NCBI RefSeq assembly: GCF_006345805.1
Contig: NW_021823946.1
Location: forward strand, 1 to 20,602
Direction of reading: 5' to 3'
Length of the DNA: 20,602 nucleotides
Source of the DNA: Octopus sinensis
Lineage: Eukaryota
Shown: in pieces, positions 1,575-20,190 of the stretch
Numbering within the stretch: position 1 is the stretch's first letter
Layout: every line of letters begins with the position of its first letter
The notes under the pieces: model-generated
Database searches by the model: none
Told to the model about the DNA's origin: nothing
The model's input: the letters and a program-made list of their open reading frames with translations, nothing else
Program-made: the position numbers and the translations under genes

Positions 1575-2125
1575 TGCCCTGATGCAAGATAAGGTAGTGG
1601 CTCTGATGGTTTCTGATGTTGACTGATTGAAAGTGTTATGTACATTGTTTTGCGTTGGTATGAAAGATGGGCTACAGCTAATATTCTGCTCAATACCACA
1701 TATTTGCTTGTCAGTTGTTTGACCTTAACCAGTTGAGCATGTCCCTTGGTGGCCGACAATATGTGCATCTCTGATTACGAGCAGAAGTAGTGGGGTGGGG
1801 GGCATATAGCCATATTTGAGGGAATTCTTTGGGGTTTGAATAATTCACCTCTGGAAATATGGGGTTTTTGTTCTCCTTAAACAAACCTTATTCAAAGACC
1901 CTTGTGCAGGATGGGCCACTCAACCTGAAGAAAATTCTAAACTGAGCCCACTTGCAAGGTCATGGGCTATTTATCTTGATATAAAATCACCATGTCGCGT
2001 ACATATGGTTGTGATGCATGTGCCTAGTGTACCCTTATCAGACAGGTAGTCATGATGGGTATACTGGGCTTCGTATATTTTATCCCAGTGTCTCTTTGAT
2101 GGCATGCACTGCTCTCTCGCTCAAT
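1575..2125 (+). mobile_element. ~550-bp dispersed non-coding repeat with (AAT)n tail, copy 1 (probable non-autonomous retroelement)
   Basis: Colinear end to end with 8482-9038 (shared atattctgctcaataccaca, tttgcttgtcagttgtttgacctt, ggtagtcatgatgggtatactgggcttcgtatatttta). Both copies start after (AAT)n and end in ctcaat followed by AAT repeats. Confidence 0.85.
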
Positions 2126-4415: not shown

Positions 4416-4458
<43 letters not shown>

Positions 4459-4459
<1 letters not shown>

Positions 4460-4777
4460 ATATGATATATGAGGTTCATTTAAAATAAAATAACGATTTT
4501 ATCAAGTGGTCAGCATGGAAAAAATAACCTTCAAAGGAAATAATTATTAAAATTATAAATTAGGGTATCTACGAAATACCACCATGCTGAAAATAGCAGC
4601 CATGATCTGACTCTAAAACCACCTTAACTGTCCATATATCAACATGGAGAGAAAACAAAGAGACAAGATGAAACTAGTAAAAAATTACTGGATAATTCTA
4701 GATCCCGGATTTCTGGATTTGCATTTAGGAATGCTTTGCCTCGTCAGTAGAATACACACAGAAAAGAAACATAAATA
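4459..4777 (-). mobile_element. hammerhead-containing non-coding module between two (TA)n tracts (Penelope-like pLTR / retrozyme-like)
   Basis: Bounded by (TA)n at 4417-4457 and 4778-4792; carries a type I hammerhead motif at 4695-4753. The family assignment is inference. Confidence 0.6.
4695..4753 (-). ncRNA. type I hammerhead ribozyme motif
   Basis: Minus strand reads attcta CTGACGA ggcaaagcattcctaaatgcaaatcca GAAA tccggga TC tagaat. Helix I attcta/tagaat is 6 bp perfect, the core is intact, helix III is near-palindromic ATCCGGGAT, and the cleavage triplet is AUC. Helix II closure is imperfect. Confidence 0.75.
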
Positions 4778-4942
4778 CATATATATATATATACAAAAAG
4801 CAATAAAGATTCAAGTTAATTTAAATGAATTTACTTGAATATGGTACCTAACTTAGATGCACCAAAAAAAACTATACTTTTTTAACAATACAGTAATGTG
4901 GGGTGATTATAAGCGAGAAAGAAGCAACAAGAATGGATAGGT

Positions 4943-5033
4943 TTTTAGTACAATCGTTTCATACAAGGACAGGCTTTATTAAAAGTTGTAAAAATTACAG
5001 CATATAAACGTGTCCCGTACTCATCAGCTAAAA
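4943..5033 (-). ncRNA. type I hammerhead ribozyme motif (left-arm copy)
   Basis: Reverse complement of 5243-5333, with helix III ACGATTGT instead of ACAATTGT. Confidence 0.75.
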
Positions 5034-5242
5034 TACATGTGAGTTCTCTAGACATCCTAGTGGTTGAGGCTATACTCATGAAGTAATGTAGATAATTAAG
5101 TAACATAAACAGATTTCCAAAGTTCCAAAGTTCCATTAAAGAACTTTAATGAACTTTGGAAATCTGTTTATGTTACTTAATTATCTACATTACTTCATGA
5201 GTATAGCCTCAACCACTAGGATGTCTAGAGAACTCACATGTA

Positions 5243-5333
5243 TTTTAGCTGATGAGTACGGGACACGTTTATATGCTGTAATTTTTACAACTTTTAATAA
5301 AGCCTGTCCTTGTATGAAACAATTGTACTAAAA
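5243..5333 (+). ncRNA. type I hammerhead ribozyme motif (right-arm copy)
   Basis: ttttag CTGATGA gtacgggaca..(tgtaatttttaca)..tgtccttgtat GAAA caattg TA ctaaaa. It has a 6-bp helix I, a long helix II, palindromic helix III ACAATTGT and triplet GUA. Confidence 0.8.
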
Positions 5334-5361
5334 ACCTATCCATCTTGTTGCTTCTTTCTCG

Positions 5362-5363
<2 letters not shown>

Positions 5364-5441
<78 letters not shown>
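5364..5441. repeat. pure (TA)n microsatellite
   Basis: Directly visible. Confidence 0.97.
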
Positions 5442-8481: not shown

Positions 8482-9038
8482 TGCCCAGATGCAGTATTAG
8501 GCAGTGGCTTTCATGCCTTCTGATCTTAACTGATTGGAAGTGTTATCATGTACATTGTTTTGTCATGGTATAAAAGATGGGCCACAGCAAATATTCTGCT
8601 CAATACCACAGGTTTGCTTGTCAGTTGTTTGACCTTTACCTGTTGAGCATGTCCTTTGGTTGTTGGCGCTATGTGGATCTCTGATCACAAGCAGAAGTAG
8701 TGGAGGAGCATCATAGCCATGTGTTGAGAGGAATTCTTTGCAGCTTGAATAATTCACCTCTGGAAACATGGGTGTTTCGTTCAACATCCTTAAACAAACC
8801 TTATTCAGGGACCTTTAGAGCGGGATTGTTACTCGACCAGAAGAAAATTCTAACTGGGCCCCACCTGCAAGATCATGTGCTGTTTATCTTGATATGAGAT
8901 CACCATGTCGCGCACCTATGGTTGGGATGCATGTGCCTGGTGTACCCTTATCAGACGGGTAGTCATGATGGGTATACTGGGCTTCGTATATTTTACTCCA
9001 GTGTCATTTTGATGGCATGCTCTGCTCGCTCACTCAAT
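8482..9038 (+). mobile_element. ~550-bp dispersed non-coding repeat with (AAT)n tail, copy 2
   Basis: Colinear with 1575-2125 in the same orientation. Confidence 0.85.
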
Positions 9039-9147
9039 AATAATTATGTATTTGTGTACATGTGTACATGGTAGGGTGTGCAAGCAAAAGAAAAATGTTG
9101 GCAGTGACTTCGGAGTTTCTTGATATTATGTGTGCATACACAATAAT

Positions 9148-10577: not shown

Positions 10578-10742
10578 TTCTCTTCTACTCTAGGCACAAG
10601 GCCTGAAATATTGGAGGAGGGGCCAGTCGATTAATCGACCCCAGTACGCAACTGGTACTTAATTTATCGATCCCGAAGGGATGAAAGGCATAGTCGACCC
10701 AGGCGGAATTTGATCTCAGAACGTAAGGACAGGCGAAAGACC
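10578..10742 (-). mobile_element. tRNA-derived SINE, 5'-truncated, alternative 3' tail
   Basis: Shares the core actggtacttaatttatcga...atgaaaggca.agtcgacc..ggcggaatttga.ctcagaacgtaa with the other copies, but its tail is ttctcttctactctaggcacaaggcctgaaat. Confidence 0.9.
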
Positions 10743-10932
10743 TATTTCTATTTCTTTACTACCCACAAGGGGCTAAATACAGAGAGGACAAACAAGGACA
10801 GACAAACGGCTTAAGTCGATTATATCGACCCCAGTGCGTAAGTGGTACTTATTTAATCGAGCCTGAAAGGATAAAAGGCAAAGTCGACCTCGGCGGAATT
10901 TGAACTCAGAACGTAACGACAGACGAAATACC
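10743..10932 (-). mobile_element. tRNA-derived SINE, 5'-truncated
   Basis: Closely similar to 19961-20142; ends at gacgaaatacc. Confidence 0.9.
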
Positions 10933-11026
10933 TACTTCTTTACTACCCACAAGGGGCTAAACAAGGACAGACAAACGGATTAAGTCGATTACATCGACTC
11001 CAGTGCGTAACTGGTACTTAATTTAT
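10933..11026 (-). mobile_element. tRNA-derived SINE 3' half, cut off by the adjacent hairpin element
   Basis: Matches 19961-20067 with a short internal deletion. Confidence 0.9.
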
Positions 11027-11413
11027 GTATTACATCAGTTTTAAATGTCGAGCAATCTTCAGCAGAGAGGTTAATTTCATCATTAAGTGGTAGTATGTTC
11101 TTAATGATGAAATTAACCTCTCTGTCTATATATCTACCCTCTTTGTAATGTTAGCAAATGAAATAAGTTGTCCGTTTAATCAAAAACTTGTATATGTGGC
11201 TGAAGATTGCTCGACATTTTAAAACTGATGTAGTACTTACAGTGTTTAATAAAATGATGTAGCATAAAACAATTGTACTACACTACCTTGGATATTCTTG
11301 TTGTTTATTTTTATTATAATCACCCCATTTGATTTATATGGATAATACCATACGAAATTCTGATGCCTTTAACTTAAGTACCATAGTCATCTGAATCTAA
11401 ATTTTGCTGAACT
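11027..11413 (+). mobile_element. hammerhead-containing pLTR-like module with nested inverted repeats
   Basis: Outer IR 11027-11063/11199-11236; perfect 25-bp inner IR 11063-11087/11100-11124; hammerhead motif at 11195-11282. The module ends at (TA)n and shares downstream motifs with 4793-5033(-). Confidence 0.7.
11195..11282 (+). ncRNA. type I hammerhead motif with mutated core (GAAA>AAAA)
   Basis: tgtgg CTGAAGA ttgctcgacatttta...taaaatgatgtagcat AAAA caattg TA ctaca. It has the same ACAATTGT helix III and GUA triplet as 5243-5333. Confidence 0.65.
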
Positions 11414-11453
11414 TATATATATCTTTATATATATATGTATGTATGTATGTATG

Positions 11454-12065: not shown

Positions 12066-12136
12066 TTATTCAACAATCTGATGAGCCATAGGCGAAACCT
12101 GAAGAACCTTATGCATATATCAGATATATTGAATAA
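12066..12136 (+). ncRNA. type I hammerhead ribozyme motif, compact helix II
   Basis: ttattcaacaat CTGATGA gcc-ata-ggc GAAA cctga...tcaga TA tattgaataa. The core is canonical with a G-C closed 3-bp helix II; helix I ttattcaa/ttgaataa has an imperfect proximal part; helix III has one mismatch. Confidence 0.75.
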
Positions 12137-12470
12137 ATTAACATAATCACTCTGTGCAGCCTTCTTGCTCATTGAATGGAACAGCAGTTATGCATACCAA
12201 AAGTTGACTTCCTATAGGCAAATATCTATATGTGTGTCTGATACACACAGACGTGCATGTCTGTGTGAATGTGTGCGTGTCTATGAGTGTGTGTGTGTTT
12301 GTGTATGCGTGCGACTGTATATGCATGTATATATGTATGTATCAACATACAAACTAATATTTGCTTATAGAAATATACATTGTATGATTGTATGTATGCT
12401 TATGTAAACATATACATACATATATATATAAGTAATATATACATACGTATATAAATTATATACACACACG

Positions 12471-12530
<60 letters not shown>

Positions 12531-12989
12531 GGGAGTATAACTCCAAACTTACAGGGGAAAATTCAATTTAGTATTGAATCAAATTTCACAATATAAATAT
12601 ATATACTTAAAAATCTATATTTTTTTCTATCAATAAACATATAACTAATAAATAGATTTGTCCATTATTACTTACATAAGTATTATAGATATCTTTAGAA
12701 AAAATTTAGGAAATACAATTAAAGAATTGAAGAATTCCAAATTAAAAACGTATAGCCTATCTTTATAAAATACTTATTATTACTATTATTAAAAACACTT
12801 TACGATCTAGAGAGGAAAGTGACTAACTAATATCTTAAAATTTACATTCAGATATAATAATTAAATAAATGTACATATCTAAATTATCATTAACAAATAA
12901 TAAAATTATAAATTCATATTCAACAATCAATAGTTATATAGAGTACAATACTATTTCTTAAATAAAAAAGTTTACTTATCTCTCAAAAA

Positions 12990-13657
12990 GCGTATCAATT
13001 TTCGTCGCCAGAAATGATTCGGTAAAGAAATCGTTGCTTGCGTCAATGATTTGAGCGGTGACGAGCAAGCAAACCAGCGGAGATTGTGGCTCGTTGATTT
13101 TTTGTTGTTGTCACTTAAAGCATGCGGAACACATGCTCCATACTTCTGAACCTTTCCCACCGATTGAAGATGCTTCTATATGGCAGTGTGGGAGCATTCC
13201 ATTTTCTCTGCCAGTTCCCTTGTCGTTTGACGAGAATATTCGTGCAAAAGTTGGTTAAATCGCTCTTCATCGAACTCGACTGGACGGCCTTAACGAGGTG
13301 CGTCTTTGAGGTCAAAATTTCCATATTTGAACTTGGCATTCCAATCACGAGCGGTTCTTTCAGCTATGGCACCCTCTTCATACACAGCACAAATGTCGCG
13401 AGCAGCTTTTTTACGGCCTTAGAACCTTGATTAAAATCAAAAAGAAGGTGTCGAAAATGCTCGTTTTTCTTAACTTGACATTCTATTTTAATGATCTGAA
13501 AATAAACAAAATCTTACTAAAATTAACTAGAAAAAAAAAACAGATTCCAAAATTATTCAAACATAGAATTGTCGAACAAAAAATAGATTTCAAAATTTAA
13601 AAACGCAATAAATTCCAAAATTTAAAAAATGGTGGAAACTTAGTTGACAACCCAATA
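12990..13657 (-). mobile_element. 5' half of a decayed mariner (Tc1/mariner) DNA transposon
   Basis: TA + TIR ttgggttgtcaactaagtttccaccattttt on the minus strand (13655-13625), followed by a transposase pseudogene. Truncated just after the first catalytic Asp; no second TIR. Confidence 0.92.
12993..13486 (-). pseudogene. mariner transposase N-terminal half (HTH domains to first catalytic D)
   Basis: (I)ECQVKKNEHFRHLLFDFNQGSKA..AARDICAVYEEGAIAERTARDWNAKFKYGNFDLKDAPR*GRPVEFDEE..QTTRELAEKMECSHTAI*KHLQSVGKVQKYGACVPHALS..RFLYRIISGDEN. This contains the mariner GRP, WVPHEL-like and TGDEKW-like motifs. The ATG is mutated to ATA, with stops and frameshifts. Confidence 0.92.
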
Positions 13658-16309: not shown

Positions 16310-16537
16310 GGCGAGCTGTCAGAAACGTTAGCACGCCGGGCGAAATGCGTAGCAGTATTTCGTCTGCCGTTACGTTCTGAGTTCAAATTCCGCCGAGGTT
16401 GACTTTGCCTTTCATCCTTTCGGGGTCGATAAATTAAGTACCAGTTACGCACTGGGGTCGATGTATTCGACTTAATCCGTTTGTCTGTCCTTGTTTGTCC
16501 CCTCTATGTTTAGCCCCTAATGAGTAGTAAAGAAACA
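16310..16537 (+). mobile_element. near full-length tRNA-derived SINE with 15-bp TSD
   Basis: A-box-like TGTCAGAAACGTT, B-box-like GAGTTCAAATTCC, core gactttgcctttcatcctttcggggtcgataaattaagtaccagt. Flanked by the direct repeat gatatctcagttgag at 16296-16310 and 16538-16552. Confidence 0.95.
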
Positions 16538-16789
16538 GATATCTCAGTTGAGATACTGATAGTTGGAAATCAATCCAACAGACACGGAAATGTCACGAAC
16601 AAGGCTTGTCCCAGACGCATTTTGAACGACAAAACTGTTCTGTACGAAATCGTTCGGTGTCTGATCATTGTTTGCCCATGGATTTATGTTCAACGGCGGA
16701 TCCAGCAAGCAGCCAAGTCCACCGTGTCGATTATCTGACCGTCTTTCTTCGGTTGGAAAGCGAGGGTCCTTATTGCACGACTGATCACT

Positions 16790-19888: not shown

Positions 19889-19960
19889 GTGTGTGTGTTG
19901 TGTGGTGTGTGTATGTATATATATATATTAAAAATATATATATATATTCATATATATTTT

Positions 19961-20190
19961 TTTCTTTACTACCCACAAGGGGCTAAACATAGAGGAGACA
20001 AACAAGGACAGATACACGGATTAAGTCGATTACATCGACCCCAATGCGTAACTGGTACTTAATTTATCGACCCCGAAAGGATCAAAGGCAAAGTCGACCT
20101 CAGTGGAATTTGAACTCAGAACGTAACAACAGACGAAATACCACTAAGCATTTCGCCCGGCGTGCTAACGATTCTGCCAGCTCGCCACCT
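19961..20190 (-). mobile_element. full-length tRNA-derived SINE
   Basis: Reverse complement of the 16310-16537 family, with A box TGGCAGAATCGTT and B box GAGTTCAAATTCC. Confidence 0.95.

What the first reader, a model, noticed from the sequence alone, without database searches (positions are those of the whole stretch)
4908..5367. 460-bp palindrome with a 2-nt loop carrying divergently oriented hammerheads with an unusually long helix II
Seen: arms of ~225 bp differing by only three events; each arm encodes a hammerhead (5243-5333 +, 4943-5033 -). Helix II is ~60 nt (gtacgggaca/tgtccttgtat, tttat/ataaa, tgtaa/ttaca) and helix III is the palindrome ACAATTGT, too tight to fold alone. Established: such minimal hammerheads are reported to cleave as dimers through palindromic helix III. 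Inference: this is a recent inverted pLTR duplication. Read-through RNA would form a >200-bp dsRNA that masks the ribozyme and is a potential ADAR/Dicer substrate, and the DNA could extrude a cruciform next to (TA)n. The helix II closing pair is G-U rather than G-C, possibly from CpG decay.
Basis: partly seen in the sequence, partly recalled or inferred. Interest (0 to 1): 0.75.

Follow-up and report, generated by a model that had tools for sequence, protein, structure and literature searches.

The report
Head-to-head Penelope-type stub, long-stem hammerheads
This 460-base mirror repeat is two back-to-back copies of the end of a very abundant repeat, each carrying a hammerhead RNA motif with an unusually long, conserved stem; it is likely an insertion stub left by a Penelope-type jumping gene, an ordinary kind, and self-cutting is untested.

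Summary
Observation confirmed: arms 4908-5141 and 5144-5367 differ by three events and carry outward-facing type I hammerhead motifs with a 60-nt helix II. The unit is larger than reported: the left arm runs 114 nt further (4794-4907), and (TA)n flanks both ends. In four public runs the arm is a very high-copy repeat that often ends in (TA)n at the short end, continues upstream of the centre, and shows other head-to-head joints; the centre lies on a native 14-nt micro-palindrome. A diverged relative 6 kb away is also head-to-head, keeps the tail, and keeps the long helix II with compensatory changes. Best reading: a Penelope-type insertion primed on both target strands from two RNA sites, a layout already in print; the scan found the same kind before on other DNA, including this genome. 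Corrections: only one arm has the perfect helix III palindrome; U at 11.1 looks like a clade trait, not decay of this copy; the two hammerheads cannot dimerise in cis. Unproven: the exact junction in independent data, a linked RT/endonuclease gene, cleavage, transcription. Interest low; the long-stem hammerhead is the only mild novelty.

The parts
4779..4793 (.). Left target remnant, (AT)7A microsatellite
   Evidence: sequence
4794..4907 (-). One-sided tail, 114 nt, native continuation of the element beyond the short end; holds predicted stem-loops, the strongest at about 4809-4840
   Evidence: high summed contig depth over 4810-4907 in 4 of 4 runs; homologous to the tail of the relative at 11315-11415, 0 of 500 shuffles as good; fold
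4908..5141 (-). Long (left) arm, element sense on the minus strand
4943..5033 (-). Type I hammerhead motif, helix III ACGATTGT, predicted cut after 4949
5125..5133 (.). Junction stutter: 8-nt tandem duplication plus one base, left arm only
5136..5149 (.). Native micro-palindrome TTAAAG-AA-CTTTAA on which the two arms meet
   Evidence: family contigs match the window from 5136 onward and have other letters before it (11, 6, 3 and 5 contigs in X1-X4); only inverted repeat with 6-bp arms in 5136-5363
5144..5367 (+). Short (right) arm, element sense on the plus strand; last four letters TATA shared with the microsatellite
5243..5333 (+). Type I hammerhead motif: helix I 5243-5248/5328-5333, core 5249-5255 and 5316-5319, helix II 5256-5315 (G.U closing pair), helix III ACAATTGT 5319-5326, predicted cut after 5327
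5364..5441 (.). Right target remnant, (TA)39
11024..11413 (+). Diverged relative in the same window: head-to-head copy with a broken inverted arm (11024-11087), 12-nt spacer (11088-11099), hammerhead 11194-11283 with 59-nt helix II and a G12-to-A change, same tail, (TA)n end

Best explanation
The palindrome is two back-to-back copies of the hammerhead-bearing end of a very high-copy repeat, flanked by TA microsatellite on both sides, and was likely made in one insertion event by a Penelope-type reverse transcriptase/endonuclease. Shown: head-to-head arms, a 114-nt tail on one side only, (TA)n at both outer ends, a junction on a native 14-nt micro-palindrome with a short stutter beside it, and a second, older head-to-head relative nearby. 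Inferred: the enzyme cut both strands of a (TA)n tract; one cut end primed cDNA at the short site (5363-5367) and the other at the long site 114 nt further along the same RNA species; both cDNAs stopped about 105 nt upstream of the ribozyme core, annealed through TTAAAG/CTTTAA and were filled in, leaving the 9-nt stutter. The AA spacer on the top strand says that the short-end (bottom-strand) cDNA is the one that crossed the micro-palindrome. The stub encodes no protein and is likely inert. Its hammerheads would cut only if transcribed outward from the centre and paired through helix III with a second RNA, probably weakly or with protein help; a read-through RNA would mask them. Whether the source is the pLTR of an autonomous Penelope-like element or a non-coding element that borrows its enzyme is open, about even odds.
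For:: summed contig depth in X1 of about 0.4-1.3 million over most arm and tail bins, against 7-114 for the single contigs listed in its table 8; (TA)n loose ends before 4908 (20 contigs in X1, 8 in X4, among 24 rows shown of 690); one shared upstream continuation before 5136 in 4 of 4 runs; three other joints that map as head-to-head turns at other element positions (5051 to 5236, 5031 to 5318, 4953 to 5310; mapped). Both arms share the minority letter at 4989/5287 (family other letter 75-100% of depth), so they come from one template lineage; the relative carries the tail and ends in (TA)n within about 12 nt of the same long end, and turns 100 nt upstream of C3 (here 105 nt); the micro-palindrome is a weak hairpin (-0.2 kcal/mol) but a good duplex between two strands (-7.5). 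Literature: head-to-head inverted pLTRs with junction palindromes and a one-sided tail (PMC3846280, passages; PMC8557442, passages); cleavage and extension of both strands, two internal RT start sites that bound the tail, AT-rich targets, protein-assisted ribozyme (PMC11167929, parts 1-2 of 4); dual hammerheads 100-700 bp apart on opposite strands (PMC4209133, parts 1-2 of 4).
Against: The exact junction is not confirmed independently: X1, X2 and X4 have no contig over 5130 or 5132, and the one X3 contig there (depth 18.5) has three one-base gaps. No RT or GIY-YIG gene was linked to the element: 0 such hits in 11 ORFs and in 51 read-through frames. The tail is 114 nt, against 30-40 bp in print. 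That tail and arm are contiguous across the family rests on depth, on the absence of a loose end at 4907 among the 24 rows shown, and on one relative, not on a listed bridging contig. Depth near the long end (4780-4809) is unusable because the tool skipped 4762-4805. The 5' parts of the element and the relative are not significantly alike (140 of 500 shuffles as good), so the shared turning point rests on distance only. The three other joints rest on one contig each; one has only 23 letters on its short side and the side lengths of the other two were not shown. No TSD can be seen inside (TA)n.
Confidence: 0.72

Rival explanations
1. Self-priming: one cDNA, primed at the short end, folds back on the native micro-palindrome and copies itself (or an antisense RNA self-primes, as proposed for rotifer Penelope); the tail is then added by a template switch.
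For: The AA spacer and the stutter just inside the left arm fit snap-back of the bottom strand; the arms share a minority allele; self-priming was proposed from junction palindromes in PMC3846280 (Discussion passage).
Against: A snap-back copy of the short-end cDNA cannot contain the 114-nt tail, so a second priming or a switch is needed anyway; the hairpin is worth only -0.2 to -0.7 kcal/mol as DNA; snap-back from the long-end cDNA would leave TT, not AA, on the top strand.
Confidence: 0.12
2. A single longer copy inserted first; a later replication or repair template switch at the micro-palindrome made the second arm and rejoined in the TA tract.
For: Micro-palindromes next to (TA)n are plausible switch sites (general knowledge, not tested); the right arm has two letters that differ from the common family form.
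Against: The short arm stops at the site where many independent family copies end in (TA)n, which a host repair event need not respect; the relative shows the same layout; the element's upstream part would have to be lost in the same event.
Confidence: 0.07
3. Assembly or library fold-back artefact.
For: No contig of X1, X2 or X4 covers 5130 or 5132; near-perfect palindromes are a known artefact class (general knowledge).
Against: The mirror stops at an element-specific end and the flanks are not mirrored; the arms differ in three places, one a 9-nt stutter; the junction falls on a native micro-palindrome; an older, decayed head-to-head relative lies in the same window. The runs may simply be individuals without this insertion, and 76-98% of X1, X2 and X4 was read.
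Confidence: 0.06
4. A MITE or foldback DNA transposon family whose unit is the whole palindrome.
For: Long terminal inverted repeats and TA at both ends.
Against: The family continues upstream of the centre with other sequence, turns at other positions in other copies, has a one-sided tail and a conserved hammerhead.
Confidence: 0.03

Closest known systems
EN+ Penelope insertions with inverted pLTR and optional tail (Adineta vaga Pen2a_Av and others; PMC3846280, passages seen; overview PMC8557442, passages)
   Same: Head-to-head inverted termini about 200 bp long, palindrome at the junction, tail on one side only, microsatellite targets that hide the TSD
   Different: No ORF in this insertion; tail 114 nt rather than 30-40 bp; link to an RT/endonuclease gene not shown
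PAc (Poseidon, Anolis carolinensis) in vitro mechanism (PMC11167929, parts 1-2 of 4 read)
   Same: Two ends that would match two internal RT start sites; both target strands used; AT-rich target; hammerhead upstream of the start sites
   Different: No open frame starts in the ribozyme or tail here; start sites about 114 nt apart; a 4-nt TATA match to the target at the short end
Type I hammerheads of metazoan PLEs (PMC4209133, parts 1-2 of 4 read; supplements not read)
   Same: Type I core, short self-complementary helix III suited to dimers, pairs of motifs on opposite strands 100-700 bp apart
   Different: Helix II is 60 nt and about 23 bp against 6-8 bp in the main text; 10.1-11.1 is G.U (U.U in the relative) instead of the highly conserved G-C; no extra base between positions 9 and 10.1
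Metazoan non-LTR retrozymes (PMC7229834, passages; bioRxiv 10.64898/2026.07.22.740005, part 1 of 5)
   Same: Non-coding, AT-rich, high-copy, type I hammerhead; axolotl HHR_Amex2 also has a U.U at the base of helix II and cuts better as a dimer
   Different: No tandem units in this window; unit length and circular RNA unknown
ASBVd type I hammerheads (PMC6155905, passages)
   Same: Unstable helix III, dimeric cleavage, helix II not of the short canonical kind
   Different: Viroid RNA, not a genomic retroelement; no sequence comparison was made

Membership tests
Type I hammerhead ribozyme | Core CUGANGA, GAAA and NUH in type I order with helix I closing the motif | tested here: met
   both arms, 6-bp helix I, GUA triplet; 0 of 2000 shuffled arms gave a hit
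Type I hammerhead ribozyme | Paired helix II | tested here: met
   23 bp predicted; 3 of 10 basal pairs and 1 of 6 helix I pairs changed on both sides in the relative; 60 of 63 cells paired; only two lineages and a hand-set structure
Type I hammerhead ribozyme | G10.1-C11.1 closing pair (highly conserved, not universal) | tested here: not met
   G.U in both arms, U.U in the relative; a U.U case that still cleaves is described in PMC7229834
Type I hammerhead ribozyme | Helix III, here self-complementary for dimer formation | tested here: met
   8-bp duplex between two strands: -6.4 (right), -5.8 (left, two G.U), -6.1 (mixed) kcal/mol; free cofolds of two copies did not return the active dimer fold
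Type I hammerhead ribozyme | Rfam RF00163 gathering score | tested here: not met
   19.4 bits against 34, with 54 nt taken as an insertion
Type I hammerhead ribozyme | Self-cleavage | not testable with these tools
   needs an in vitro assay
EN+ Penelope-like insertion (inverted pLTR plus tail) | Head-to-head 5'-truncated termini with a junction palindrome | tested here: met
EN+ Penelope-like insertion (inverted pLTR plus tail) | Native tail on one side only | tested here: met
   4794-4907, high-copy, homologous in the relative; longer than the 30-40 bp in print
EN+ Penelope-like insertion (inverted pLTR plus tail) | TSD or microsatellite target | tested here: met
   (TA)n on both sides and at family ends; a TSD cannot be discerned
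EN+ Penelope-like insertion (inverted pLTR plus tail) | Linked ORF with telomerase-like RT and GIY-YIG endonuclease | not testable with these tools
   none in the window; no genome-wide search was possible; pattern scans found no longer family contig
Non-LTR retrozyme | Tandem units of a few hundred bp, each with a hammerhead | tested here: inconclusive
   no tandem unit in the window; arrangement elsewhere in the genome not seen
Non-LTR retrozyme | Circular or monomeric RNA cut at the ribozyme | not testable with these tools
   only contigs were available, no raw RNA reads
MITE or foldback DNA transposon | Fixed palindromic unit shared by most copies | tested here: not met
   family runs on upstream of 5136 and turns elsewhere in other copies

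The most novel reading that the evidence does not exclude
A clade of Penelope-mobilised elements in this animal uses a hammerhead with a conserved 60-nt helix II and a non-canonical G.U or U.U closing pair, which standard descriptors and Rfam thresholds miss. The long stem is a docking site for the element's protein, which switches on dimeric cleavage; two RT start sites about 115 nt apart bracket stem-loops in the tail; and head-to-head stubs turn about 100 nt upstream of the core because that is the 5' end of the RNA. The many stubs would then map promoter, start sites and ribozyme use in vivo.
Probability: 0.2. Interest if true: 0.5.

Novelty: new member of a known kind. Interest (0 to 1): 0.22.

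Why it matters
As a palindrome it is ordinary: head-to-head Penelope-type stubs with opposed hammerheads are in print and this scan has met many. It adds two small things. First, a clean single event whose long end, short end, micro-palindrome junction, spacer letters and stutter can be read as a record of two-strand priming, in line with the only in vitro study of this class. Second, a hammerhead whose long helix II is kept with compensatory changes between diverged relatives while the usual G-C closing pair is absent; if it cleaves, it widens the known shape range of genomic hammerheads and implies that descriptor searches undercount them. Any dsRNA, editing or cruciform role is a generic property of long inverted repeats and has no evidence here.

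Tried and rejected
Rfam on the whole window gave only hairpin-driven miRNA and sRNA hits below gathering scores (MIR841 103.9 of 200 bits); rejected as matches to any long hairpin. Exact-pattern scans for longer family contigs: metagenome contigs 0 hits in 2 of 2 scans; viral contigs 1 hit of 17 nt, L001, without helix I or similar flanks, taken as chance. Earlier findings by sequence and by relatives: nothing. Sequencing runs: no RNA holder listed; 20 of 24 rows hold part of the stretch, and only X1-X4 were laid. No contig cover at 5130 and 5132 in X1, X2, X4: a hole in contigs proves nothing. Pfam: 1 weak unrelated hit in 11 ORFs; 1 hit in 51 read-through frames, a mariner HTH fragment 8 kb away. 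Free folding of the monomer (z -0.35, 64 of 200 shuffles as good) and of the arm in context (helix I pairing probability 0.001-0.002) does not give the active fold; forcing it costs 1.0-1.3 kcal/mol on the 91-nt motif. Homology of the 5' parts of element and relative was not significant (140 of 500 shuffles). Literature for a long helix II in genomic type I hammerheads: 0 papers and 1 review whose passages do not describe one in retroelements; for the effect of G.U at 10.1-11.1: 4 papers listed, the passages of one read gave no measurement. No cephalopod Penelope hammerhead paper was found (listing only). A search on Penelope palindromes and hairpins listed 7 papers, none read. Considered and rejected: MITE, miRNA precursor, cis-dimer of the two arms, CpG decay of this copy at 11.1.

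Full report
Observation. The palindrome is in the sequence as described. The arms are 4908-5141 and 5144-5367 and differ by an extra A at 4932/4933, a C at 4955 against A at the mirror position 5321, and 9 extra bases at about 5125-5133. The fold is -381 kcal/mol and none of 100 shuffles matches it. A type I hammerhead descriptor (consensus recalled) finds 5243-5333 (+) and 4943-5033 (-), each with a 6-bp helix I, a 60-nt helix II and a GUA cut site; 5 of 200 shuffled windows and 0 of 2000 shuffled arms give a hit. Rfam misses the motif in the whole window and scores it 19.4 bits, below the gathering score of 34, on a short stretch. Helix III is the perfect palindrome only in the right arm; the left arm has ACGATTGT, which still forms an 8-bp duplex between two strands with two G.U pairs.

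The real unit. The window is microsatellite-rich animal DNA full of repeats; earlier scan notes call the genome cephalopod or octopus-like, which I did not test. Contigs of four public runs laid on 4480-5363 show the arm as a very high-copy repeat: summed depth in X1 is about 0.4-1.3 million over most arm bins, while the single contigs listed have depth 7-114. The tool warns that the sum is no copy number, so 'thousands of copies' is my inference. Depth stays high over 4810-4907, so the element runs on to the left of the palindrome. In the window this extension reaches 4794 and abuts (AT)7A; the right arm abuts (TA)39. Among the 24 loose-end rows shown (of 690), family contigs end in (TA)n before 4908 (20 contigs in X1, 8 in X4), and none marks another continuation at 4907. 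So there is a short end, used by the right arm and by many other copies, and a long end 114 nt further on, used by the left arm.

The junction. In 4 of 4 runs family contigs match the window from 5136 onward and carry one shared, different sequence before it (11, 6, 3 and 5 contigs). The native element therefore continues upstream and already contains TTAAAG-AA-CTTTAA (5136-5149), the only inverted repeat with 6-bp arms in 5136-5363. The arms meet on it. As DNA it is a weak hairpin (-0.2 kcal/mol) but a good duplex between two strands (-7.5). The 9-nt stutter lies just inside the left arm. Three joints (5051 to 5236 with 8 filler letters resembling nearby sequence, 5031 to 5318, 4953 to 5310) map as head-to-head turns at other positions of the element; each rests on one contig, and 16 joint rows were not shown. 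Against my reading, the window's own junction was not seen: X1, X2 and X4 have no contig at 5130 or 5132, and the single X3 contig there aligns with three gaps. The insertion may be absent from those animals, but independent confirmation is lacking.

A relative in the same window. BLAST of the long arm finds a 70% match over 148 nt at 11186-11327 (E 3e-7). This copy has the hammerhead (11194-11283, 59-nt helix II, G12 changed to A), the same tail (0 of 500 shuffles as good) and a (TA)n end within about 12 nt of the same long end. It too is head-to-head: 11063-11087 mirrors 11100-11124 around a 12-nt spacer, and 11024-11063 mirrors 11199-11239, so its inverted arm has lost an internal piece. 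It turns 100 nt upstream of C3, against 105 nt here; the 5' parts are not significantly alike (140 of 500 shuffles), so this agreement rests on distance only.

The ribozyme. Helix II folds as 23 bp (-11.3 kcal/mol). On a hand-set 21-pair structure over the two arms and the relative, 60 of 63 cells pair and 4 pairs change on both sides (3 in basal helix II, 1 in helix I); 10 of 500 shuffles reach that count, and slid registers give 0-1. This is only two lineages. Family variants, mapped, mostly respect the fold: 5287 A to G and 5309 C to T keep a wobble pair, 5283 is in the loop, 5279 T to C would pair with G at 5287 (linkage not seen), and 5265 A to T breaks a terminal pair. Position 11.1 is U in both arms and in the relative, which has U.U there, and no variant row at 4961 or 5315 appears among 40 shown of 46. 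So the non-canonical closing pair looks like a clade trait; old CpG decay in a master copy is not excluded. At 4955 the left-arm letter is carried by 74-93% of the depth laid on that arm; contigs with the other letter were partly laid on the right arm, so the true share is lower. Both arms share the minority letter at 4989/5287, which points to one template lineage. Free folding does not give the active form; in a read-through RNA helix I and II pair with probability 0.0. The two motifs are on opposite strands, so a dimer needs two RNAs or a tandem source.

Mechanism. Shown are the anatomy, the family ends and the native micro-palindrome. Inferred is the path: both strands of a (TA)n tract are cut; the two 3' ends prime cDNA at the short and the long site of the same RNA species; both cDNAs stop about 105 nt upstream of the core and anneal through six complementary bases; fill-in leaves the stutter. 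The AA on the top strand means the short-end cDNA crossed the micro-palindrome. Pure snap-back of that cDNA cannot supply the tail, and snap-back of the long-end cDNA would leave TT. The reading of two fixed start sites draws on PMC11167929 and on earlier scan notes; the notes are leads, and my support is. I give it 0.72, self-priming with a template switch 0.12, later duplication 0.07, artefact 0.06, MITE 0.03.

Comparison. PMC3846280 (passages) describes head-to-head inverted pLTRs, junction palindromes and a one-sided tail. PMC8557442 (passages) gives the same layout as typical and notes (TA)n targeting that hides TSDs. PMC4209133 (parts 1-2 of 4; supplements not read) reports hammerheads 100-700 bp apart on opposite strands, dimer-type helix III, low activity, helix II of 6-8 bp and a highly conserved G10.1-C11.1. 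PMC7229834 (passages) describes retrozymes and an axolotl hammerhead with U.U at the base of helix II. It works like an EN+ Penelope insertion; membership in a named clade needs the RT and endonuclease gene, which I could not link (none in 11 ORFs or 51 frames; pattern scans gave no family contig). I found no paper on a 60-nt helix II in retroelement hammerheads, but the library is partial and the supplements of PMC4209133 and the bioRxiv preprint (part 1 of 5 read) were not seen.

Verdict. A probably real, young, head-to-head stub of a Penelope-type element: a new member of a known kind, met before by this scan in the same genome (e1-9514361) and in others. Interest 0.22. The long-stem, non-G-C hammerhead is the part worth a bench test.

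Noticed in passing
window 11024-11413: Diverged head-to-head relative of the element, apparently interrupting a copy of the dispersed repeat at 10930-11025; its inverted arm is internally deleted and cut short, as if the palindrome had decayed.
   Followed up: yes
window 4471-4778, hammerhead 4695-4753 (-): A second, different hammerhead-bearing high-copy repeat directly left of the finding, between two TA tracts: 6-bp helix I, 27-nt helix II, near-palindromic helix III, an extra A before G12. One search shows 12 opposite-strand joints in 4533-4733 among 15 joint rows shown, so this family also seems to form inverted copies.
   Followed up: partly
window 12068-12137 (+): Worn hammerhead-like motif: intact CTGATGA and GAAA with a 9-nt helix II, a possible long helix III and bulged helix I, but no clean cleavage triplet; not returned by my descriptor.
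   Followed up: partly
window about 12980-13640 (-): Broken mariner-type transposase fragment; Pfam HTH_48, E 5e-07.
   Followed up: no
window 10634-11025, 16310-16542, 19954-20186: Several copies of one dispersed repeat of about 230 bp or shorter, 88-91% alike, in both orientations and partly tandem; SINE-like by recall, not tested.
   Followed up: no
window 1580-2110 and 8490-9100: Two diverged copies of another repeat (similar translations), no Pfam hit.
   Followed up: no
window 4794-4811 (-) and 5342-5363 (+): Both outer ends are preceded, in element sense, by a similar U-rich stretch containing TCTT and TTGCTT before the TA tract; possibly a start-site signal, not tested for chance.
   Followed up: no
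window 4416-5441: Three TA tracts enclose two different hammerhead-bearing repeats in a row, suggesting repeated insertion into one microsatellite.
   Followed up: partly
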